Below, piece after piece: positions 4,233 to 62,535 of a stretch of DNA of 64,000 bases. Position 1 is the first letter of the stretch, and each line of letters begins with the position of its first letter. This stretch comes from Pristiophorus japonicus (Eukaryota). The notes beneath the pieces are model-generated. The model worked only from the letters and a program-made list of their open reading frames with translations. It ran no database searches and was not told the DNA's origin. The position numbers were made by a program, and so were the translations under genes. Location: NCBI RefSeq assembly GCF_044704955.1, contig NW_027252668.1, positions 2,728,001 through 2,792,000 on the forward strand, in the 5' to 3' direction.

Positions 4233-5019
4233 TGCGATCGGTTTCAATGGTGAAACAGCATCTGATTCTACTGCTCCACGTGGCTGTAAGATTCACAATG
4301 TAACTCTGCCACTTCGGATCACTGTGGGACTGACTGATTCTGCTGCCTGTGATAATAGGATTAGAGGCCAGTTCTGTGTCCCTACGCTCTGTGAGTGATA
4401 ATGTACTTACTGTGTGGGAGAAGGAGCTGCCTGAACTGTTCCTCGTGTTCCGGGTGGAGGAAAGCTCTCATTTGTTCTGGCTGGTTGAAGAATATTGCTC
4501 TGAGAATAATCATACAAGAACAATATTAGTCACAAGATGCAGGTGAAGATTATGATGGATCTGAGAGAGCAACAATGTATCTCTCGATCACCAGCAGTCA
4601 ATTGAGAAGTCAGTGCACCAGACAATATAACCAGTTTTAAAATATTTTCTCACACACTCCTCTCCTGCAATAGATGCACTTTGTGAAACTCCTCACATCC
4701 TCACTGCCAGGCTGTGTTTCCACTGTTCACTGTCCAAGAACAACAGACACGGTGAGATTGGAACTGAATCAGGAACATTCACTACTGATTTGGGGAAAGA
4801 AAGCAGCAACGATTTGAAAGAGCGAGGTGATTTACTTTCTCTGTTATCTTACACTGTCCACACACAGCCCGAGAATGGCCTCTGCCTCCCCCCACTCACT
4901 GACACTGGTTCTTGCTTCAATCATCCTCTTATACACAGCCCCCGGACTCAGTGCAGGTCTCTGAGCCCATCTGCGGACACGCTCCCAAAGCGCTGCACTG
5001 CTCTAAGGAGGCTGCTGCT

Positions 5020-5200
5020 CGCTGTCTTACCCCGGGGCCGCGGGCTCTCCATTTCCGGCTGTTTGAAACCATCTTCTTTCGCTCACTGAGTGAATGGTGA
5101 TCACAGGCAGGACTGGGGCAGGGGAGGGCGCATGCGCTCTTCTGCTCACTGGGACTCGACACAGGGGGTGGGGCTGAGCCGCGCATGCGCAGCTCTCTGC
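5020..5200 (-). promoter_or_regulatory. CpG-rich promoter with two NRF1 palindromes and a short first exon ending at a GTAAG donor (unit A)
   Basis: GCGCATGCGC at 5128-5137 and 5181-5190. Minus strand reads ATG GAG AGC CCG CGG CCC CGG G|GTAAGA (5052-5031). Confidence 0.6.
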
Positions 5201-8969: not shown

Positions 8970-9533
8970 TGGGCGACCAACATCCTCAAGGTTGTGGCCG
9001 ATGGCAAGGATTGCAGGGGAATGTCCCTGGCCACGATAAAGAAGGCTCTGGCGGCCAAAAGCGTGGATGTGGAGAAGCGCGGGTCCCAGATCAGATTCAG
9101 TAATCAGAAGAATGTGATGAATGGCTCCCTGAAGCACATCAAGGGCACGGGCGCCTCGGGCTCCTTCAAAATCGCTAAGACGGATCCCCAGGAGAAAGTG
9201 GGAAAGAAGGTGAAGAAGCCAGCAGCCAAGAAATCTCCAGCAAAGAAAGCAACAGCCAAGAAATCTCCAGCAAAGAAAGCATCAGCCAAGAAATCTCCAG
9301 CAAAGAAAGCAGCAGCCAAGAAATCTCCAGCAAAGAAAGCAGCAGCCAAGAAAACGAGCACCAAGAAGGTGCCAACGGCAAAAAAGATAGCGAAAGGGCC
9401 GGCTGGGAAGAAGGCGGCGGTGAAGAAGCCCAAGAGCCCCAAGAAAGTGAAGGCGGCCAAAAAGGTGGAGAACCCGAGGGTCAAGGCCACGCCCAAATCA
9501 GCAAAGGCCAAGAAAGCAGCACCCAAAAAGTAA
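8970..9533 (+). pseudogene. H1: Histone H1, 5'-truncated (promoter, ATG and ~37 codons deleted)
   Basis: Near-identical to 59410-59975 but joined directly to the upstream spacer. Globular domain remnant ([11 protein letters not shown]) and KSPAKK repeats are present. Confidence 0.88.
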
Positions 9534-12768: not shown

Positions 12769-13144
12769 TTACTTCCTCTTGGGTGCACTGGCGGTTTTCT
12801 TGGGCAGCAGCACAGGCTGGATATTAGGCAGCACTCCGCCCTGAGCGATGGTCACCTTTCCCAGCAGCTTGTTGAGCTCCTCGTCGTTGCGGATGGCCAG
12901 CTGGAGGTGTCTGGGAATGATGCGGGTCTTCTTGTTGCCGGCCAGTTCCAGGATTTCAGCGGTCAGATACTCGAGCAGCACAGCAGCCATGTAGACCGGG
13001 GCTCCGGCACCCACACGGTCAGCGTAGTTGCCCTTTCGCAGGAGCCTGTGAACACGGCCCACAGGGAACTGCAGTCCGGCCCGGGAGGAGCGAGACTTGG
13101 CCTTGGCCCCGAACTTCACCGCCTGTTTTTCCTCTCTCAGACAT
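12769..13144 (-). pseudogene. H2A: Histone H2A pseudogene
   Basis: Compared with the intact copy at 31361-31747: +1 G frameshift near codon 12, one-codon insertion (AAVLL), and a 15-nt deletion removing AARDN. Confidence 0.92.
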
Positions 13145-14113
13145 TTCCACAATCCACACGTTCAGAGAAAGAATGAGAAACTCCTCCCACATCTGCCTTT
13201 CTTATACCTTCTGGAGGAATGCAGGGAGCGAATTTGTGATTGGTCGTTCGGTGGTGAATTTCATTGGTCTTTTCAGGTGACCAATCACAATCTGTTTATC
13301 CCACCAATGGAAGTAGGGCGGAAATTACTGTCTCCAACAGTCAGAATAACGATTTTAATTCAAAAACCCCGCCAAGAAATTTTAAAACAGCGGATTATGT
13401 TAATATAAATTCACCATTAGTCAAAGATTTCCCAACACGTTTTAATTAATTTTGTCTTTTACATATTCCCCTTGCAAGTTCCAGGCTGTTACAATCAGGA
13501 TTAAATTCGGGTACTATTTCAAACTGTCTAATGGGCGGAAATCAATCCCCACCGATTCTGTAACGGGACTTAATCTTTGTAAAAGTTGTGTTTCACAGAT
13601 TATCGATCGAGCCCCTGCAAAGGCGGGAGTGAACCCAGAACTGGGAGTCCTTCTGTGAAAAGAGAAGAGGGACAGAGTATTCAAACTGCCCCGGTTCTGA
13701 TCTCTGTAAGAACTCCCATTCTGGGTTGTTACACTGCGGGGAGTGTCGGCTGAATAAATGGACTGACCCGCAACAGGAATTGAAAAATAAACTTGAAAAG
13801 GGCTTACGAGAGAGAATGTGTGACTGAAATCTGAGTCTCTGCCCCAAAACAAGCTCTTAATTTGGCAGGCGGTGAAAATGAACGGGTCTGAGAGCATAGG
13901 GAATCAGCGACCAAGGACCGTATTTGTCGTTGGCGGAAAATTCCCGCGACGCTAAGGTGGAACCGGACAGTGAAACTGATATCTGAGAATTCAAAACTAA
14001 ATCTACAGTTGGAAATGTAAAAGTTCTCAAATATACTTGTTCAGGAAATAATTACAGTAAACAGAGTGTAAAGGGAGATGCGTTTGTGCAGCTCTTTCAG
14101 AGAGGTTGTGGGT

Positions 14114-14212
14114 GGCTCTTAAAAGAGCCGTTGTGTTTGGGGTTTGATCTGTCAGGACAGCGGGCAGTCTCACTTGGAGCTGGTGTACTTGGTCACCGCC
14201 TTTGTCCCTTCC
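14114..14212 (-). pseudogene. H2B: Histone H2B 3' remnant ([13 protein letters not shown]) with stem-loop
   Basis: Stem-loop at 14114-14129. Homology to unit B jumps from 32822 to ~33507, a ~685-bp deletion of the CDS and promoter. Confidence 0.9.
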
Positions 14213-19967: not shown

Positions 19968-20039
19968 TGAGATGGCCAAGAATCGAACCTGGGTCAACTG
20001 CTTGAAAGGCAGCTATGCTCAGCAGTATACCACCATTGC
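19968..20039 (-). pseudogene. tRNA-Gly(TCC)-derived pseudogene, anticodon mutated to TTC
   Basis: 72 nt matching vertebrate tRNA-Gly-TCC (GGTGGTATA..GAGCATAGCTGC..GCAGTTGACC..GGTTCGATTC). Two acceptor-stem mismatches; T4 tract ~10 nt downstream. Confidence 0.8.
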
Positions 20040-20423
20040 CCACACAGCAGTCATTTTGTATTTGCAGACAAACTGCTTCTTACGGGTCTTCAGCGGGACA
20101 AATAAATTGCTGTGCAATCATTTTAATCAGAATGTAAGCACGGTGCTGGGACACTTTCCCTCCAATTACAAATGGTCACTGTCAATAGTAATCTTGCTTG
20201 GACTGAGCCCTCACCCCATTTATTAGTTTAAAGTCTGGACTGAGTCCTCACCCCAGTTACTTTTTCTTCAGTCCCCTCTAGATTAAACAATAGTTATCAC
20301 CAAAAATAAATGGATGATGAATGTGCTTTGTAAATGTTAGAGAAATGGCATTTGCTGGAAGGTACTCGTGTTCGGTTCTAAACTGCGACATGGTGACATA
20401 AACTGTATTAAATGGAGCCTGTT

Positions 20424-20495
20424 TGTGCTGGCCGAGAATGAAACCTGAGTCAACCCCTGGGAAGGCAGCTATGCTCAGCACTATAGCACCATCAC
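20424..20495 (-). pseudogene. tRNA-Gly pseudogene (degenerate)
   Basis: Reverse complement GTGATGGTGCTATAGTGCTGAGCATAGCTGCCTTCCCAGGGGTTGACTCAGGTTTCATTCTCGGCCAGCACA; anticodon stem and B box are damaged. Confidence 0.7.
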
Positions 20496-20728: not shown

Positions 20729-20870
20729 CCAGACCGCTGTGAGTCTGGTGCTGCCCGGGGAGCTGGCCAAGCACGCCGTGTCGGAATGGGACAAAGGCGG
20801 TGACCATTGCAAATAAATTCACAACACAGGAAAAAGCATTAAAAAAGGCAACGGCTCTTTTAAGAGGAAA
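20729..20870 (+). pseudogene. H2B: Histone H2B C-terminal remnant with degenerate stem-loop
   Basis: [19 protein letters not shown], then a frameshift; CAACGGCTCTTTTAAGAGG downstream. Confidence 0.75.
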
Positions 20871-24262: not shown

Positions 24263-25660
24263 TGGCTCTGGTATATGCGTATATGCTTTTCTCTATCTGT
24301 TATGTGAGTGTGGGTTTTACTTTGTACATGTCACTTTCTGGTATGTGATTGGGTACTTTATTCTGCACCTGTTGATTTCAAGTTAGTGGGTTAGTAATTT
24401 ACACTGTATGTATCTTTCGCTAGAACACGAATGTGGCATTTACTCTGTATCTGTCAGTATCTAAGTATAGGTTTTATTTTACCTGTCAGTTTCTGATATG
24501 TAAGATTCAATAGATGAGTGTGGTGCTTAATCTCTGCCAGTCAGTTTCTGATATATGAGGATGTGTTTTATTCTGTACTTATCAGTCTATTGTATGTGAA
24601 TGTGCGTTATGATCTGTACTTGTCAGTTTCTGGTATGTGAGAGTGGGGTTTATTCTGTACCTGTCAGTTTCTTATATCTGAGTGTGTGTTTTAATCTGTT
24701 CCTGTCAGTTTCTGGTATTTGAGTATTGTTTTAATCTGTACTGGTCAGTTTCTGGTATGTGATTGTGGATTTTATTCTGAACCTGTCAGTTTCTGATATG
24801 TGAGTGTTGGTTTAATCTGTACCCGTCAGTTTCTGGCTTACGAGTGGTAGTTTAACTTGTAACTGTCAGCTTTTATGTATGATACATGAATATGGGCTTT
24901 ATACTGTATGTGTCTTTCATATGCGAGTCTGTGTATATTTCTGTAACTGTCAGATTTAGGTATGTGTGTGGGGGTTAAATCTGTGCCTCTCAGTTTCTGG
25001 TGTGTTAGTCTGGGTTTAATCAGCACCTATTAGCTCCTGCAATTTGGGTGTATGTTTTAGACTGTACCTGTCAGTTCCTGCTATATGAGCGGGGATTTAC
25101 TCTGTATCTGCCCGTCTCTGGTATGTGAACGTGAATATCTGTTTTATGTTGTACCTGAATTTGTCTGATATGTGAGTAAAGGTTTTACCTTTCTGATAGG
25201 TGTGTGTGGGTTTCACTCTCCATCTGCCAGTTTATGAGATGGTAATATGTCTTTAGCTCAGAAACTGTCAGATTCTGCAATGCAAGTATCAGTTTTCCTT
25301 TTTATCTGTGTTTTCTGACGTGACTCTGGGATTTACACTCTACCTGTCACTCTCTGGTGTGGAGTTTACTCTGTGCGTGTCATTTTCATCTCTGTGGGTG
25401 TGGGTTGTATATTGTATCTGTCAGTCTATGGTTTTATTCTGCACCTGTCATTTTCTGGTATATTTGAGGTGGCTTAATACTGAATCGCTCCTTTCCTGAT
25501 ACGTGATTATTGCTTTTGCTCTGTACCCGTCAGCTTCTGATATGAGAGTATGGTTTTTACTTTCTAACTTATATATTAAGGTATGTGATTGTGTGTTTTA
25601 TTCTCTACCTGCCAGTCTCTGGCAAGTGAGTGCGGGTGTTTAATCTACATGTCAGTTTGA
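24263..25660 (+). repeat. ~41-bp satellite, subfamily 1 (start of unit B)
   Basis: Monomer motifs; near-identical to 52400-53320. Confidence 0.85.
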
Positions 25661-26879
25661 TCTGTTTCAATGGTGAAACAGCGTCTGATTCTACTGCTCC
25701 TTGTAAGATTCACAATGTAACTCTTGTACTGTGGATTACTGTGGGACTGACTGCTTCTGCTGCCTGTGATAATAGGATTGAGGCCAGTTCTGTGTCTCTG
25801 CGCTCTGTGAGTGATAATGTACTTACTGTGTGTGGGAAGGAGCTGCCTGCACTGGTTGACAGTCCGTGTATGCCAGCAGTGTGGATTGACACTATGTCAG
25901 TGTCTGTCTGTTCCTGTGTTTGTGAGTAAGTGAGTGAAAATGGATCTGTCTCTCAGTGCGATATGTTTGGACTTTGAAACAACATCTTATTGTACTGCTC
26001 CAAGTGACTCTGGGATTCATAATGTAACTCTGGAAATTCGGATCACTGTGGGACTGACTGCTTCTGCTGCCTATGACAATAGGATTGAGACCAGTTTTGT
26101 GTCTCTGTGCTCTGTAAGTGATAATATACTTACTGTGAGTGAGAAGGAGCTGACAGTACTGTTCCTTGTGTTCCGGGTGGAGTAAAGATCACATTTATTC
26201 AGGCTCAGTGAAGTACTTCTCTCTGAGAATAATAATACAAGAACAATATTAGTTATGATATGGACAGGTGAGTGGGAGAATATAAAAAGTAAAGTTATAA
26301 TTAACATGTTTGTTTATAATAAAGTAAAGTATCTGGAGAGGGGAAACCACGATACAAACAGCACTGGTCCATGAATAGGACCACCCGATTGGAACAGTTC
26401 AGGTTTATATCTCCCACTCCCATGGGACTACTTGTAAAATTCTGAATCTCTTCCTGGAATATAACCATAGTACCTGGGCTGTACAACACTTGTTTTCAGT
26501 CTTCTGAAACTGAGTTGAGGGCCTGTGTAGTTAACAGAATGTCACAGAGCCAGGATCCTGATGCATCTGAGGCAGCGACAGTCTCTCGATCACCAGCAAC
26601 AACGGTTCTGGACAACTCAATGCACCAAAACAAAATAACCGATGCTTGAAATGTCTTCTCCCACACTCCTCACCTGGTGTCTGCAATAGATACACTTTGT
26701 GAAACTCCTCACGTCCTCACCTTCAGGGTGTGTTTCCACTGTTCACTGTCCAAGAACAACAGACACGGTGAGATTGGGACTGAATCAGGAACATTCACTA
26801 CTGATTTGGGGAAAGAAAGCAGCAATGATTTGAAAGAGCGAGGTGATTTACTTTCACTGTTACCCCACACTGTATACAC

Positions 26880-27275
26880 AACTATTTTAGTAAAACAATA
26901 AATCAAGTACCCCCTTATTAAAGGGGCATTAAAACAGACAAATTAAACTTTGGCATTAAATGGATCAAATTAAAATTTGGTTCCTGGGGGTGATGATGCA
27001 CTCCAGTCCCTCTGGCGCCCATCTCTCACAGAAGGCCGCGAGCGTACCGGTGAACACCGCGTGCTCCATCTCCAGGGACACCCTGGCTCGAACATAACCG
27101 CGGAAGAGAGGCAGGCAGTCGGGCTGAACACCCCCTCGACCGCCCGTGGCCTGAACCGGTTAATGGCAACCTTGGTCATGCCCAGGAGCAGTCCGATGAG
27201 GAGACCTTCCGATCTGCCCGCTCCCCTCCACACAGGGGGCCCAAAGATCAGGAGCAGGGGACTGAAGTGCAAACG
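26880..27275 (-). mobile_element. Tx1/L1-clade LINE 3' fragment
   Basis: Minus-strand translation gives LLIFG..LLGMTKVAINR.. and, in a shifted frame, CLPLFRGYVRARVSLEMEHAV..AFRERWAPEGLECII, resembling the Tx1 ORF2 C-terminus. Confidence 0.6.
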
Positions 27276-27829
27276 ATTAACGAGTGTCATCCTTATGCAG
27301 GAGCCATCAAGCAAACTCTACCAAGTAACGTTCATTGGTTCATGTGCAACGGCCTGCGGAGAACCATGAGATGCTACTGTAAGTACTGCTTACAACCAGA
27401 ATCATCAGAGGACCATTTTATCCTCAAGTAGAAAGTAAGAGACTGTCCACACACAGCCCGAGAATGGCCTCTCCCTTCTCCCACTCACTCCATGTTCCGG
27501 AACTAGTTCCTGCTTCACTCTGCCTCTGACAAACAAACAGCCCCCGACGGAACTAAACCAGTAACGTTCACTCCTGGTTAGGAGAGAGAAAGCAGCAATG
27601 ATTGTAAACAGCAGATTCTGCCCATTCTGTCTCCCTTCCCCCTGGACACACACAGCCCGAGAATGGCCTCTCCCTCCCCCCACTCACACCACGCACTGAC
27701 ACTGGTTCTTGCTCCACTCCGCCCCTTGCACACAGCCCCCGACTCCCCCCGGACTCAGTGCCGGTCTCTGAGCCCATCTGCGGACACGCTCCCAAAGCGC
27801 TGCGCTGCTGTAAGGAGGCTGCTGCTCGC

Positions 27830-28005
27830 TGCCTTACCCCGGGGCCGCGGGCTCTCCATTCCGGGCTGTTTGAAACCATCTTCTTTCGCTCAGAGTGAAT
27901 GGCGATCAAAGGCAGGACTTGGGGAGGGGAGGGCGCATGCGCTCTTCTGCTCACTGGGAATCGACACAGGGGGCGGGGCTGAGCCGCGCATGCGCAGCTC
28001 TCTGC
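27830..28005 (-). promoter_or_regulatory. NRF1/GC-box promoter and first exon (unit B)
   Basis: GCGCATGCGC at 27933-27942 and 27986-27995; GGGGCGGGG; ATG at 27859 with a donor after 27838. Confidence 0.6.
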
Positions 28006-53320: not shown

Positions 53321-54520
53321 TGATCTGTTTCAATGGTGAAACAGCGTCTGATTCTACTGCTCCTTGTAAGATTCACAATGTAACTCTTGTACTGTGGATT
53401 ACTGTGGGACTGACTGCTTCTGCTGCCTGTGATAATAGGATTGAGGTCAGTTCTGTGTCTCTGCGCTCTGTGAGTGATAATGTACTTACTGTGTGTGGGA
53501 AGGACCTACCTGCACTGGTTGACAGTCAGTGTATGCCAGCAGTGTGGATTGACACTGTGTCAGTGTCTATCTGTTCCTGTGTTTGTGAGTAAGTGAGTTA
53601 AAATGGATCTGTCTCTCAGTGCGATATGTTTGCACTTTGAAACAACATCTTATTGTACTGCTCCAAGTGACTGTGGGATTCATAATGTAACTCTGGAAAT
53701 TCGGATCACTGTGGGACTGACAGCTTCTGCTGCCTATGACAATAGGATTGAGACCAGTTTTGTGTCTCTGTGCTCTGTAAGTGATAAGGAGCTGACAGCA
53801 CTGTTCCTTGTGTTCCGGGTGGAGGAAAGATCACATTTATTCAGGCTCAGTGAAATACTTCTCTCTGAGAATAATAATACGAGAACAATATTAGTTATGA
53901 TATGGACAGGTGAGTGGGAGACTATAAAAAGTAAAGTTATAATTAACATGTTTGTTTATAATAAAGTAAAGTATCTGGAGAGGGGAAACCACAATACAAA
54001 CAGCACTGGTCCATGAATAGGACCACCCGATTGGAACAGTCCAGGTTTATATCTCTCACTCCCATGGGACTATTTGTAAAATTCTGAATCTCTTCCTGGA
54101 ATATAACTATAGTACCTGGGCTGTACAACAATTGTTTTCAGACTTTTGAAACCGAGTTGAGGGCCTGTGTAGTTAACAGAATGTCACAGAGCCCGGATCC
54201 TGATGTATCTGAGGGAGCGACAGGCTCTCGATCACCAGCAACACGGTTCCGGACAACTCAATGCACCAAAACAAAATAACTGATGCTTGAAATGTCTTCT
54301 CCCACACTCCTCACCTGGTGCCTGCAATAGATACACTTTGTGAAACTCCTCACATCCTCACCGTCAGGATGTGTTTCCACTGTTCACTGTCGAAGAACAA
54401 CAGACACGGTGAGATTGGGACTGAATCAGGAACATTCACTACTGATTTGGGGAAAGAAAGCAGCAATGATTTGAAAGAGCGAGGTGATTTACTTTCACTG
54501 TTACCCCACACTGTATACAC

Positions 54521-55469: not shown

Positions 55470-55645
55470 CTGCCTTACCCCGGGGCCGCGGGCTCTCCAT
55501 TCCCGGCTGTTAGAAACCATCTTCTTCCGCTCACTGAGTGAATGGCGATCGCAGGCTGGACTTGGGGAGGAGACGGCGCATGCGCTCTTTTGCTCACTGG
55601 GAATCGACACAGGGGGCGGGGCTGAGCCGCGCATGCGCAGCTCTC
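55470..55645 (-). promoter_or_regulatory. NRF1/GC-box promoter and first exon (unit C)
   Basis: GCGCATGCGC at 55576-55585 and 55629-55638; ATG at 55500 with a donor after 55479. Confidence 0.6.

Positions 55646-62031: not shown

Positions 62032-62535
<504 letters not shown>

What the first reader, a model, noticed from the sequence alone, without database searches (positions are those of the whole stretch)
26674..27995. Cryptic spliced non-histone gene with a CxxC motif carried in each histone unit
Seen: all three units have a twin-NRF1 promoter and a 22-nt minus-strand coding exon ATG..G|GTAAG (MESPRPR; 5052-5031, 27859-27838, 55500-55479). A 65-nt candidate exon follows, bounded by AG and GTGAGG (26738-26674; 54379-54315; donor lost in the copy at ~4722-4665). 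The phases join to give MESPRPR-VETHPEGEDVRSFTKCIYCRHQ. The four differences between the B and C copies of this exon all fall at third codon positions (three synonymous, one E/D), and CIYC is kept in all three copies. The ORF track does not show this. Inference: an unannotated, possibly zinc-binding gene family oriented divergently from H1. Caveats: it needs the second of two nearby AGs, and I could not find a consistent third exon (candidates ~4500-4411 and ~26224-26135 have stops in different frames).
Basis: partly seen in the sequence, partly recalled or inferred. Interest (0 to 1): 0.7.

Follow-up and report, generated by a model that had tools for sequence, protein, structure and literature searches.

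The report
Fossil leader of shark zinc-finger genes
This is the likely promoter and predicted first exons of a large family of zinc-finger genes in what is likely a shark; their reading frame likely once coded the front end of those proteins but now drifts like non-coding DNA, and two of the three copies here have no zinc-finger part behind them.

Summary
The motifs are at the stated coordinates, but this is not a separate CxxC gene. The module has hundreds of copies. In 36 of 40 dispersed copies a C2H2 zinc-finger (ZNF) exon lies 4-18 kb downstream on the same strand; for window copy A it lies just outside the window. Copies B and C belong to a young subfamily of about 39 copies on one contig. 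Third-position bias vanishes with more copies (pN/pS 0.99; 19 of 39 intact). It is likely a fossil N-terminus, now 5' leader or uORF; the live ZNF frame starts at an ATG inside the last exon. No copy examined keeps the fusion. Splicing and expression are untested. The scan noted a similar fossil leader in another genome.

The parts
27933..27994 (-). Copy B: two NRF1-type palindromes (27985-27994, 27933-27942) with a GC box between; likely TATA-less promoter (motif names recalled)
   Evidence: local GC 0.64 and CpG o/e 0.72-0.74 at 27700-28000 against 0.45 for the window
27838..27879 (-).
26674..26738 (-).
26626..26673 (-). Copy B: 48-nt extension to the older donor (GT at 26625), giving the 113-nt exon 2 whose phase chains into exon 3
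   Evidence: GT kept in 63 of 68 non-B copies; phase chain
26134..26222 (-). Copy B: predicted exon 3 (89 nt, AG..GTAAGT), containing AATAAA; a partial repeat follows near 25854
   Evidence: AATAAA is shared with the C9 subfamily (20 of 57 copies), so it is not a B novelty
5031..5189 (-). Copy A: twin NRF1-type sites (5180, 5128) and predicted exon 1 (ATG 5052, donor 5030)
4619..4722 (-). Copy A: predicted exon 2 to the older donor position, shortened by small deletions
4411..4499 (-). Copy A: predicted exon 3. Its ZNF exon lies about 6 kb further on, outside the window (G000:C2056:2726350-2724978, minus strand; ATG at 2726243), with acceptor AG changed to AA and two premature stops
55479..55637 (-). 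Copy C: twin NRF1-type sites (55628, 55576) and predicted exon 1 (ATG 55500)
54315..54379 (-). Copy C: 65-nt exon 2 with GTGAGG donor
53775..53864 (-). Copy C: exon 3 remnant; its donor is removed by a 21-nt deletion
   Evidence: (L019)

Best explanation
The module is the 5' end of a large C2H2 zinc-finger gene family: a likely housekeeping-type promoter and three predicted exons that would splice onto a zinc-finger exon 4-18 kb downstream, with a reading frame that likely coded the family's ancestral N-terminus and now evolves without detectable protein constraint. Shown in sequence: the linkage, the phase chain (1, 0, 2) into the ZNF exon's old frame, the family-wide stop in finger 1, and the in-exon ATG. 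Inferred: transcription from the NRF1 sites, splicing, and translation of the ZNF protein from the in-exon ATG by leaky scanning or reinitiation past leader uORFs. Segmental duplication carried the unit into the histone array. There copy A kept a damaged ZNF exon, and the B/C subfamily lost it, gained a donor by a point change, and was amplified about 39-fold with the histone repeats as a passenger, giving at most a short non-coding or neutral transcript.
For: Same-strand ZNF exon downstream of 36 of 40 dispersed copies (24 within 8 kb; 12 more within 18 kb). No complete same-strand ZNF exon 2-12 kb upstream in 20 of those 40 (fragments in 8). Module within 10 kb upstream of 14 of 20 ZNF start sites. 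3 of 3 A-type and 0 of 4 B-type modules in 264 kb have their own ZNF exon; 0 of 20 B-type within 10 kb. Majority frame open over 74 codons (shuffle P = 0.0165). In 11 of 20 copies where exon 1 was not located, exons 2-3-ZNF stay open to the first finger's CxxC. TGA in finger 1 in 95 of the 100 listed of 600 matches. 0 of 23 copies with all four exons give ATG-to-finger; 0 of 22 copies lacking one of the TGAs stay open through 4 fingers. pN/pS 0.99 (39 B copies), 1.22 (24 dispersed), 0.80 and 2.51 for shared variants of exons 2 and 3; exon 3 length is off-frame in 22 of 49. A basking-shark model starts at the homologous in-exon Met (P0007).
Against: No transcript data were seen, so promoter and exons are predictions. 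Splice dinucleotides (89-93% kept) are no better conserved than the average column (0.88-0.93). Linkage can reflect shared descent of one duplicated block: A-type units are 80-87% alike along their whole length. My constraint test is weak among these paralogues: the first 50 ZNF codons gave pN/pS 0.77, P = 0.20, though histones gave 0.03-0.06. One C9 copy has an NRF1-type site about 400 bp upstream of the ZNF exon, so some ZNF exons may have their own promoter. Only about 200 of some 900 candidate copies were read.
Confidence: 0.8

Rival explanations
1. The B/C subfamily became a new three-exon microprotein gene: the gained donor joins exon 2 to exon 3, gives a 34-residue CxxC peptide, and ends at the AATAAA just behind the stop.
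For: The 34-codon frame closes in exon 3, 5 nt before AATAAA. Exon 2 alone leans synonymous in B copies: pN/pS 0.46, P = 0.088 (30 copies); 0.63, P = 0.19 (39 copies); tree changes 6/8/14 by codon position, P = 0.057.
Against: Whole frame pN/pS 0.99, variants 13/15/15 by position, density 0.42 per site against 0.25-0.57 in intron windows; 19 of 39 copies intact; frameshifts and Cys-to-Phe changes are shared by several copies. An earlier out-of-frame ATG precedes it. An intron control frame gave pN/pS 0.48, P = 0.036. One CxxC alone supplies only half a zinc site (established knowledge).
Confidence: 0.06
2. The old frame is still used: as a translated uORF of about 130 residues ending at the finger-1 TGA that tunes ZNF output, or read through the TGA to give an N-terminally extended ZNF protein with a shark-specific effector domain.
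For: Open 121-124 residues from exon 2 to the TGA in 12 C9-type copies. The TGA is near-fixed across about 600 copies. Sharks have many selenocysteine tRNA genes (10.1101/2025.06.08.657570, passages).
Against: No constraint on shared variants; A versus C9 majority exon 2 differs by 10 non-synonymous and 2 synonymous changes. The C9 type lacks the start ATG; 10 of the 11 C9 copies open to the CxxC lack AG at the ZNF acceptor. A second TGA sits in finger 3 (13 of 13). The stops are at Arg positions, not Cys positions, which fits CpG decay.
Confidence: 0.08
3. The module is an independent spliced non-coding gene, or inert duplicated DNA, that merely travels in the same block as the ZNF exon.
For: No excess conservation of splice sites; whole block homologous; B/C copies exist without ZNF; NRF1 sites are often degraded in dispersed copies (exact proximal site in 6 of 57).
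Against: The three-junction phase chain into the ZNF frame is unlikely by chance. Order and strand are kept in two ZNF subfamilies whose spacers differ. No exact NRF1 site within 1.5 kb upstream of 24 ZNF exons.
Confidence: 0.06

Closest known systems
FiNZ-ZNF genes of cyprinid fish (PMC10547256; 12 passages read)
   Same: Hundreds of lineage-specific C2H2 array genes with a shared upstream exon block and one array exon.
   Different: FiNZ is a conserved, translated 28-residue domain in one exon. Here three exons chain in phase but are cut off from the array by stops and frameshifts and show no constraint.
KRAB-ZNF genes of tetrapods (Pfam PF01352 plus PF00096)
   Same: Clustered family with small upstream exons and a last exon holding linker plus fingers; human KRAB-ZNF core promoters also share a long motif (PMC8415372, passages).
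   Different: No KRAB similarity; the leader is not fused to the array.
Annotated shark ZNF models (P0007 basking shark; P0004 sawshark)
   Same: P0007 starts at the homologous in-exon Met (68% identity). P0004 holds the linker start and an H2A piece, which suggests the same histone/ZNF interleaving.
   Different: Neither contains the leader peptide; P0004 looks like a chimeric prediction (RT + H2A + fingers).
Earlier scan note e1-8633488 (another genome; AI note, unreviewed)
   Same: Three-exon fossil frame of about 75 residues in a ZNF leader, with decayed first fingers.
   Different: Here the ZNF-less histone-array subfamily and the gained donor are added; that note's gene-conversion claim was not tested, and sequence look-ups did not link the two loci.

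Membership tests
Tandem C2H2-ZNF gene (5' part of) | Array of C2H2 fingers with TGEKP-type linkers in one exon | tested here: met
   Neighbouring A-type ORF of 449 aa: PF00096 E = 1.8e-92, 16 stretches
Tandem C2H2-ZNF gene (5' part of) | Leader lies upstream of the array on the same strand | tested here: met
   36 of 40 dispersed copies and window copy A; not true of B/C type (0 of 20 within 10 kb)
Tandem C2H2-ZNF gene (5' part of) | Spliced transcript joins leader to array | not testable with these tools
   No reads could be laid
KRAB-ZNF | KRAB-A box upstream of the array | tested here: not met
   No Pfam family at E up to 10; scores 17 against two KRAB boxes equal shuffles (P 0.45 and 0.68)
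FiNZ-ZNF | Conserved N-terminal domain in frame with the array | tested here: not met
   0 of 23 four-exon copies reach a complete finger; no constraint
FiNZ-ZNF | Sequence similarity to FiNZ | not tested
   No FiNZ sequence or profile was fetched
Protein-coding microprotein gene | Purifying selection on the frame | tested here: not met
   pN/pS 0.99 and 1.22; the test has limited power (ZNF control 0.77)
Protein-coding microprotein gene | Start codon and open exon 1 kept across copies | tested here: not met
   19 of 57 non-B copies have ATG, 22 nt and no stop (counted)
Protein-coding microprotein gene | Homologues in protein collections | tested here: inconclusive
   None among longer proteins (weak search); 4 low-identity repeat proteins of unrelated families
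Bidirectional promoter with histone H1 | Head-to-head starts within about 1 kb (criterion recalled) | tested here: not met
   About 3.7 kb in A and C; no adjacent H1 in B

The most novel reading that the evidence does not exclude
Shark C2H2-ZNF genes once carried their own three-exon N-terminal effector domain with a CxxC motif, a third solution beside KRAB and FiNZ. The family expanded to hundreds of copies after a fixed UGA cut it off, and the domain is still made, either as a regulatory upstream peptide or by UGA readthrough, with the histone-array subfamily releasing it as a stand-alone 34-residue protein.
Probability: 0.1. Interest if true: 0.65.

Novelty: new variant of a known kind. Interest (0 to 1): 0.27.

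Why it matters
As it stands, this is mostly an annotation result: it explains a repeated module in shark histone arrays and warns against calling CxxC genes from two or three near-identical copies. The wider point is evolutionary. ZNF families in tetrapods and cyprinids pair arrays with an N-terminal effector and repress transposons (PMC10547256, abstract and passages). This family appears to have had a coding N-terminus, lost it, and still expanded, which raises the question of how these arrays act. The shared leader also offers one target for knocking down much of the family, as was done for FiNZ genes.

Tried and rejected
RNA runs: none was listed, so no reads were laid; this is no evidence either way. 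The ESM Atlas could not take the peptide. KRAB resemblance seen by eye from a recalled consensus: not supported. Parent host gene for exon 2: the own-genome search returned only family copies (150 scored of 893), and the representative search gave four repeat proteins at 29-34% identity with unrelated domains, taken as chance. AATAAA as a B-specific gain: rejected. Surviving full-length fusion: none in 23 four-exon copies or in 22 copies lacking one TGA. One search's four-exon ORF lengths used an acceptor one base off and were redone; its three-exon results stand. Exon 3 site labels were one base off; searches are used instead. The 40 copies were chosen by an exact exon-2 pattern and were not used for the per-copy exon-2 constraint tests (they do enter the A-versus-C9 majority comparison); 6 of 30 pattern-independent copies were dropped because they are rearranged after exon 2. 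No structure or complex was predicted: there is no evidence of a protein. Literature searches listed no paper on this leader; most were seen as listings only, and no supplements were read.

Full report
Setting. The window is G000:C2056:2728001-2792000 in a 5.9-Gb genome. It holds replication-type histone genes with stem-loops, LINE pieces and simple repeats. The two closest matches to the neighbouring ZNF protein are shark models (81% and 68%), so a cartilaginous fish is inferred.

The observation. All coordinates, motifs and the four third-position differences check out. The histone framing does not: H1 is about 3.7 kb away in A and C, B is followed by H2A and H2B only, and 4 of 20 dispersed copies have histone genes 2-12 kb upstream. 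Its AAGATGG context could also be a YY1 core next to an ETS-type site (recalled, untested).

Copy number and neighbours. Exact patterns match 106 and 145 places; DNA and protein searches list about 900 candidates. In 264 kb around the window, the three A-type modules each have a same-strand C2H2 exon about 6-7 kb downstream, and the four B-type modules have none of their own. Copy A's exon lies just outside the window. It has a mutated acceptor and an ORF cut at 109 residues, while its two neighbours give 449 and 253 residues. Of 40 dispersed copies, 36 have a same-strand ZNF exon within 18 kb downstream; the other four have histones (2), an inverted array (1) or nothing (1). In 20 of the 40 I read 2-12 kb upstream and found no complete same-strand ZNF exon, only fragments in 8. 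Conversely, 14 of 20 ZNF start sites (of 152 matches) have the module within 10 kb upstream. None of 20 B-type copies has a ZNF exon within 10 kb.

It is absent from 24 of 24 copies picked by an intronic pattern. All 36 exact matches lie on C2056. The 38 B rows form one side of a branch with 100/99 support and average 96% identity (106 of 131 rows kept; midpoint root only). A gain in B is the simpler reading, though no outgroup roots the tree. A GT 48 nt further on is kept in 63 of 68 non-B copies.

Coding constraint. In 30 B copies exon 2 leaned synonymous (pN/pS 0.46, P = 0.088; tree counts 6/8/14, P = 0.057). With 39 copies the full 34-codon frame gives 0.99, exon 2 alone 0.63 (P = 0.19), variant density equals intron density, and 19 of 39 copies are intact. 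Dispersed copies give 1.22. Shared variants give 0.80 (exon 2) and 2.51 (exon 3), and 22 of 49 exon 3 versions are off-frame. Controls: H4 and H3 give 0.06 and 0.03, but the first 50 ZNF codons give only 0.77 (P = 0.20). Many paralogues are probably dead (7 of 19 ZNF frames reach the family's last stop), so the test cannot exclude a few constrained copies.

The fossil frame. After reading scan note e1-8633488 I tested the older boundaries. Exons of 22, 113 and 89 nt chain in phases 1, 0 and 2. With a one-in-three phase match and a few splice choices I put the chance at about 1-2% (my estimate). In 11 of 20 copies where exon 1 was not located, all of the C9 type, exons 2-3-ZNF run open to the first finger's CxxC; 10 of these 11 lack AG at the ZNF acceptor. 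The frame ends at a TGA found in 95 of 100 listed matches of 600; a second TGA lies in finger 3 (13 of 13). Divergent copies on C20 have Arg at these sites, which fits CpG decay. In the A type, a stop and a 2-nt deletion separate the linker from the fingers, and 19 of 20 copies have a stop between acceptor and in-exon ATG. No copy gives ATG-to-finger (0 of 23), and none of 22 copies lacking one TGA is open through four fingers. A basking-shark model begins at the homologous in-exon Met. A weak in-frame AG inside the ZNF exon is a loophole I could not test.

Mechanism. Most likely (0.8): an ancestral ZNF gene coded an N-terminal segment in three small exons. Stops fixed before the family expanded turned them into 5' leader with uORFs, and translation moved to an ATG in the last exon. 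Blocks of 7-15 kb were duplicated hundreds of times. One entered the histone array with its ZNF exon (A type); another, closest to the C9 type, is there without it and was amplified about 39-fold (B/C type). Linkage, phases, stops and lack of constraint are shown; promoter activity, splicing and translation are inferred.

Comparison. The architecture resembles KRAB-ZNF and FiNZ-ZNF genes (PMC10547256, 12 passages read; the word 'shark' does not occur in its main text), but the leader is neither: no KRAB signal, no fusion, no constraint. FiNZ similarity was not tested. Histone and tRNA clustering and many tRNA-Sec genes are reported for elasmobranchs, with no mention of zinc-finger genes in the main text (10.1101/2025.06.08.657570, passages). 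PMC8415372 (5 passages) notes shared core-promoter motifs in human ZNF genes. Searches listed no description of this leader; subscription papers and supplements were not seen.

Verdict. Observation partly confirmed; separate living CxxC gene not supported; a real but modest finding about the 5' end of a shark ZNF family. Interest 0.27.

Noticed in passing
G000-wide; e.g. L061-L078 ZNF exons: About 600 ZNF exons share a TGA in finger 1 (95 of 100 listed) and, in the copies read, another in finger 3, while the Cys/His pattern of these dead fingers is largely kept. In six C9 copies printed, the usual downstream Met is Thr and no Met-started frame over 30 residues was found in the old frame.
   Followed up: partly
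L104-L107, L113, L114 (C9:177.7-187.8 Mb): Six copies have an inverted second promoter/exon 1 joined directly behind exon 2.
   Followed up: no
window 20729-20860, + strand: 78-bp H2B 3' fragment with a degraded stem-loop downstream of copy B; the same fragment occurs in 8 of 20 B-type units.
   Followed up: no
window 8970-9533, 12769-13147, 14170-14212, 62125-62535: Broken histone copies: 5'-truncated H1, frameshifted H2A, H2B reduced to its 3' end, H3 with a premature stop.
   Followed up: partly
window 19968-20039, - strand: tRNA-Glu(TTC) called by ARAGORN, with a 79% similar copy at 20406-20492.
   Followed up: no
P0004 (UniRef model): A public shark 'ZNF79-like' model joins RT, ZNF linker, H2A and fingers; likely a chimeric prediction across an interleaved histone/ZNF cluster.
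   Followed up: partly
L239-L241 (C20:73.7-75.7 Mb): Divergent ZNF copies with Arg instead of the family TGAs, though broken elsewhere; useful as an outgroup.
   Followed up: partly
window 25652-25854 and 25953-26161: The 3' half of exon 3 with its GTAAGT donor is tandemly duplicated (about 81% identity) in B-type copies.
   Followed up: no
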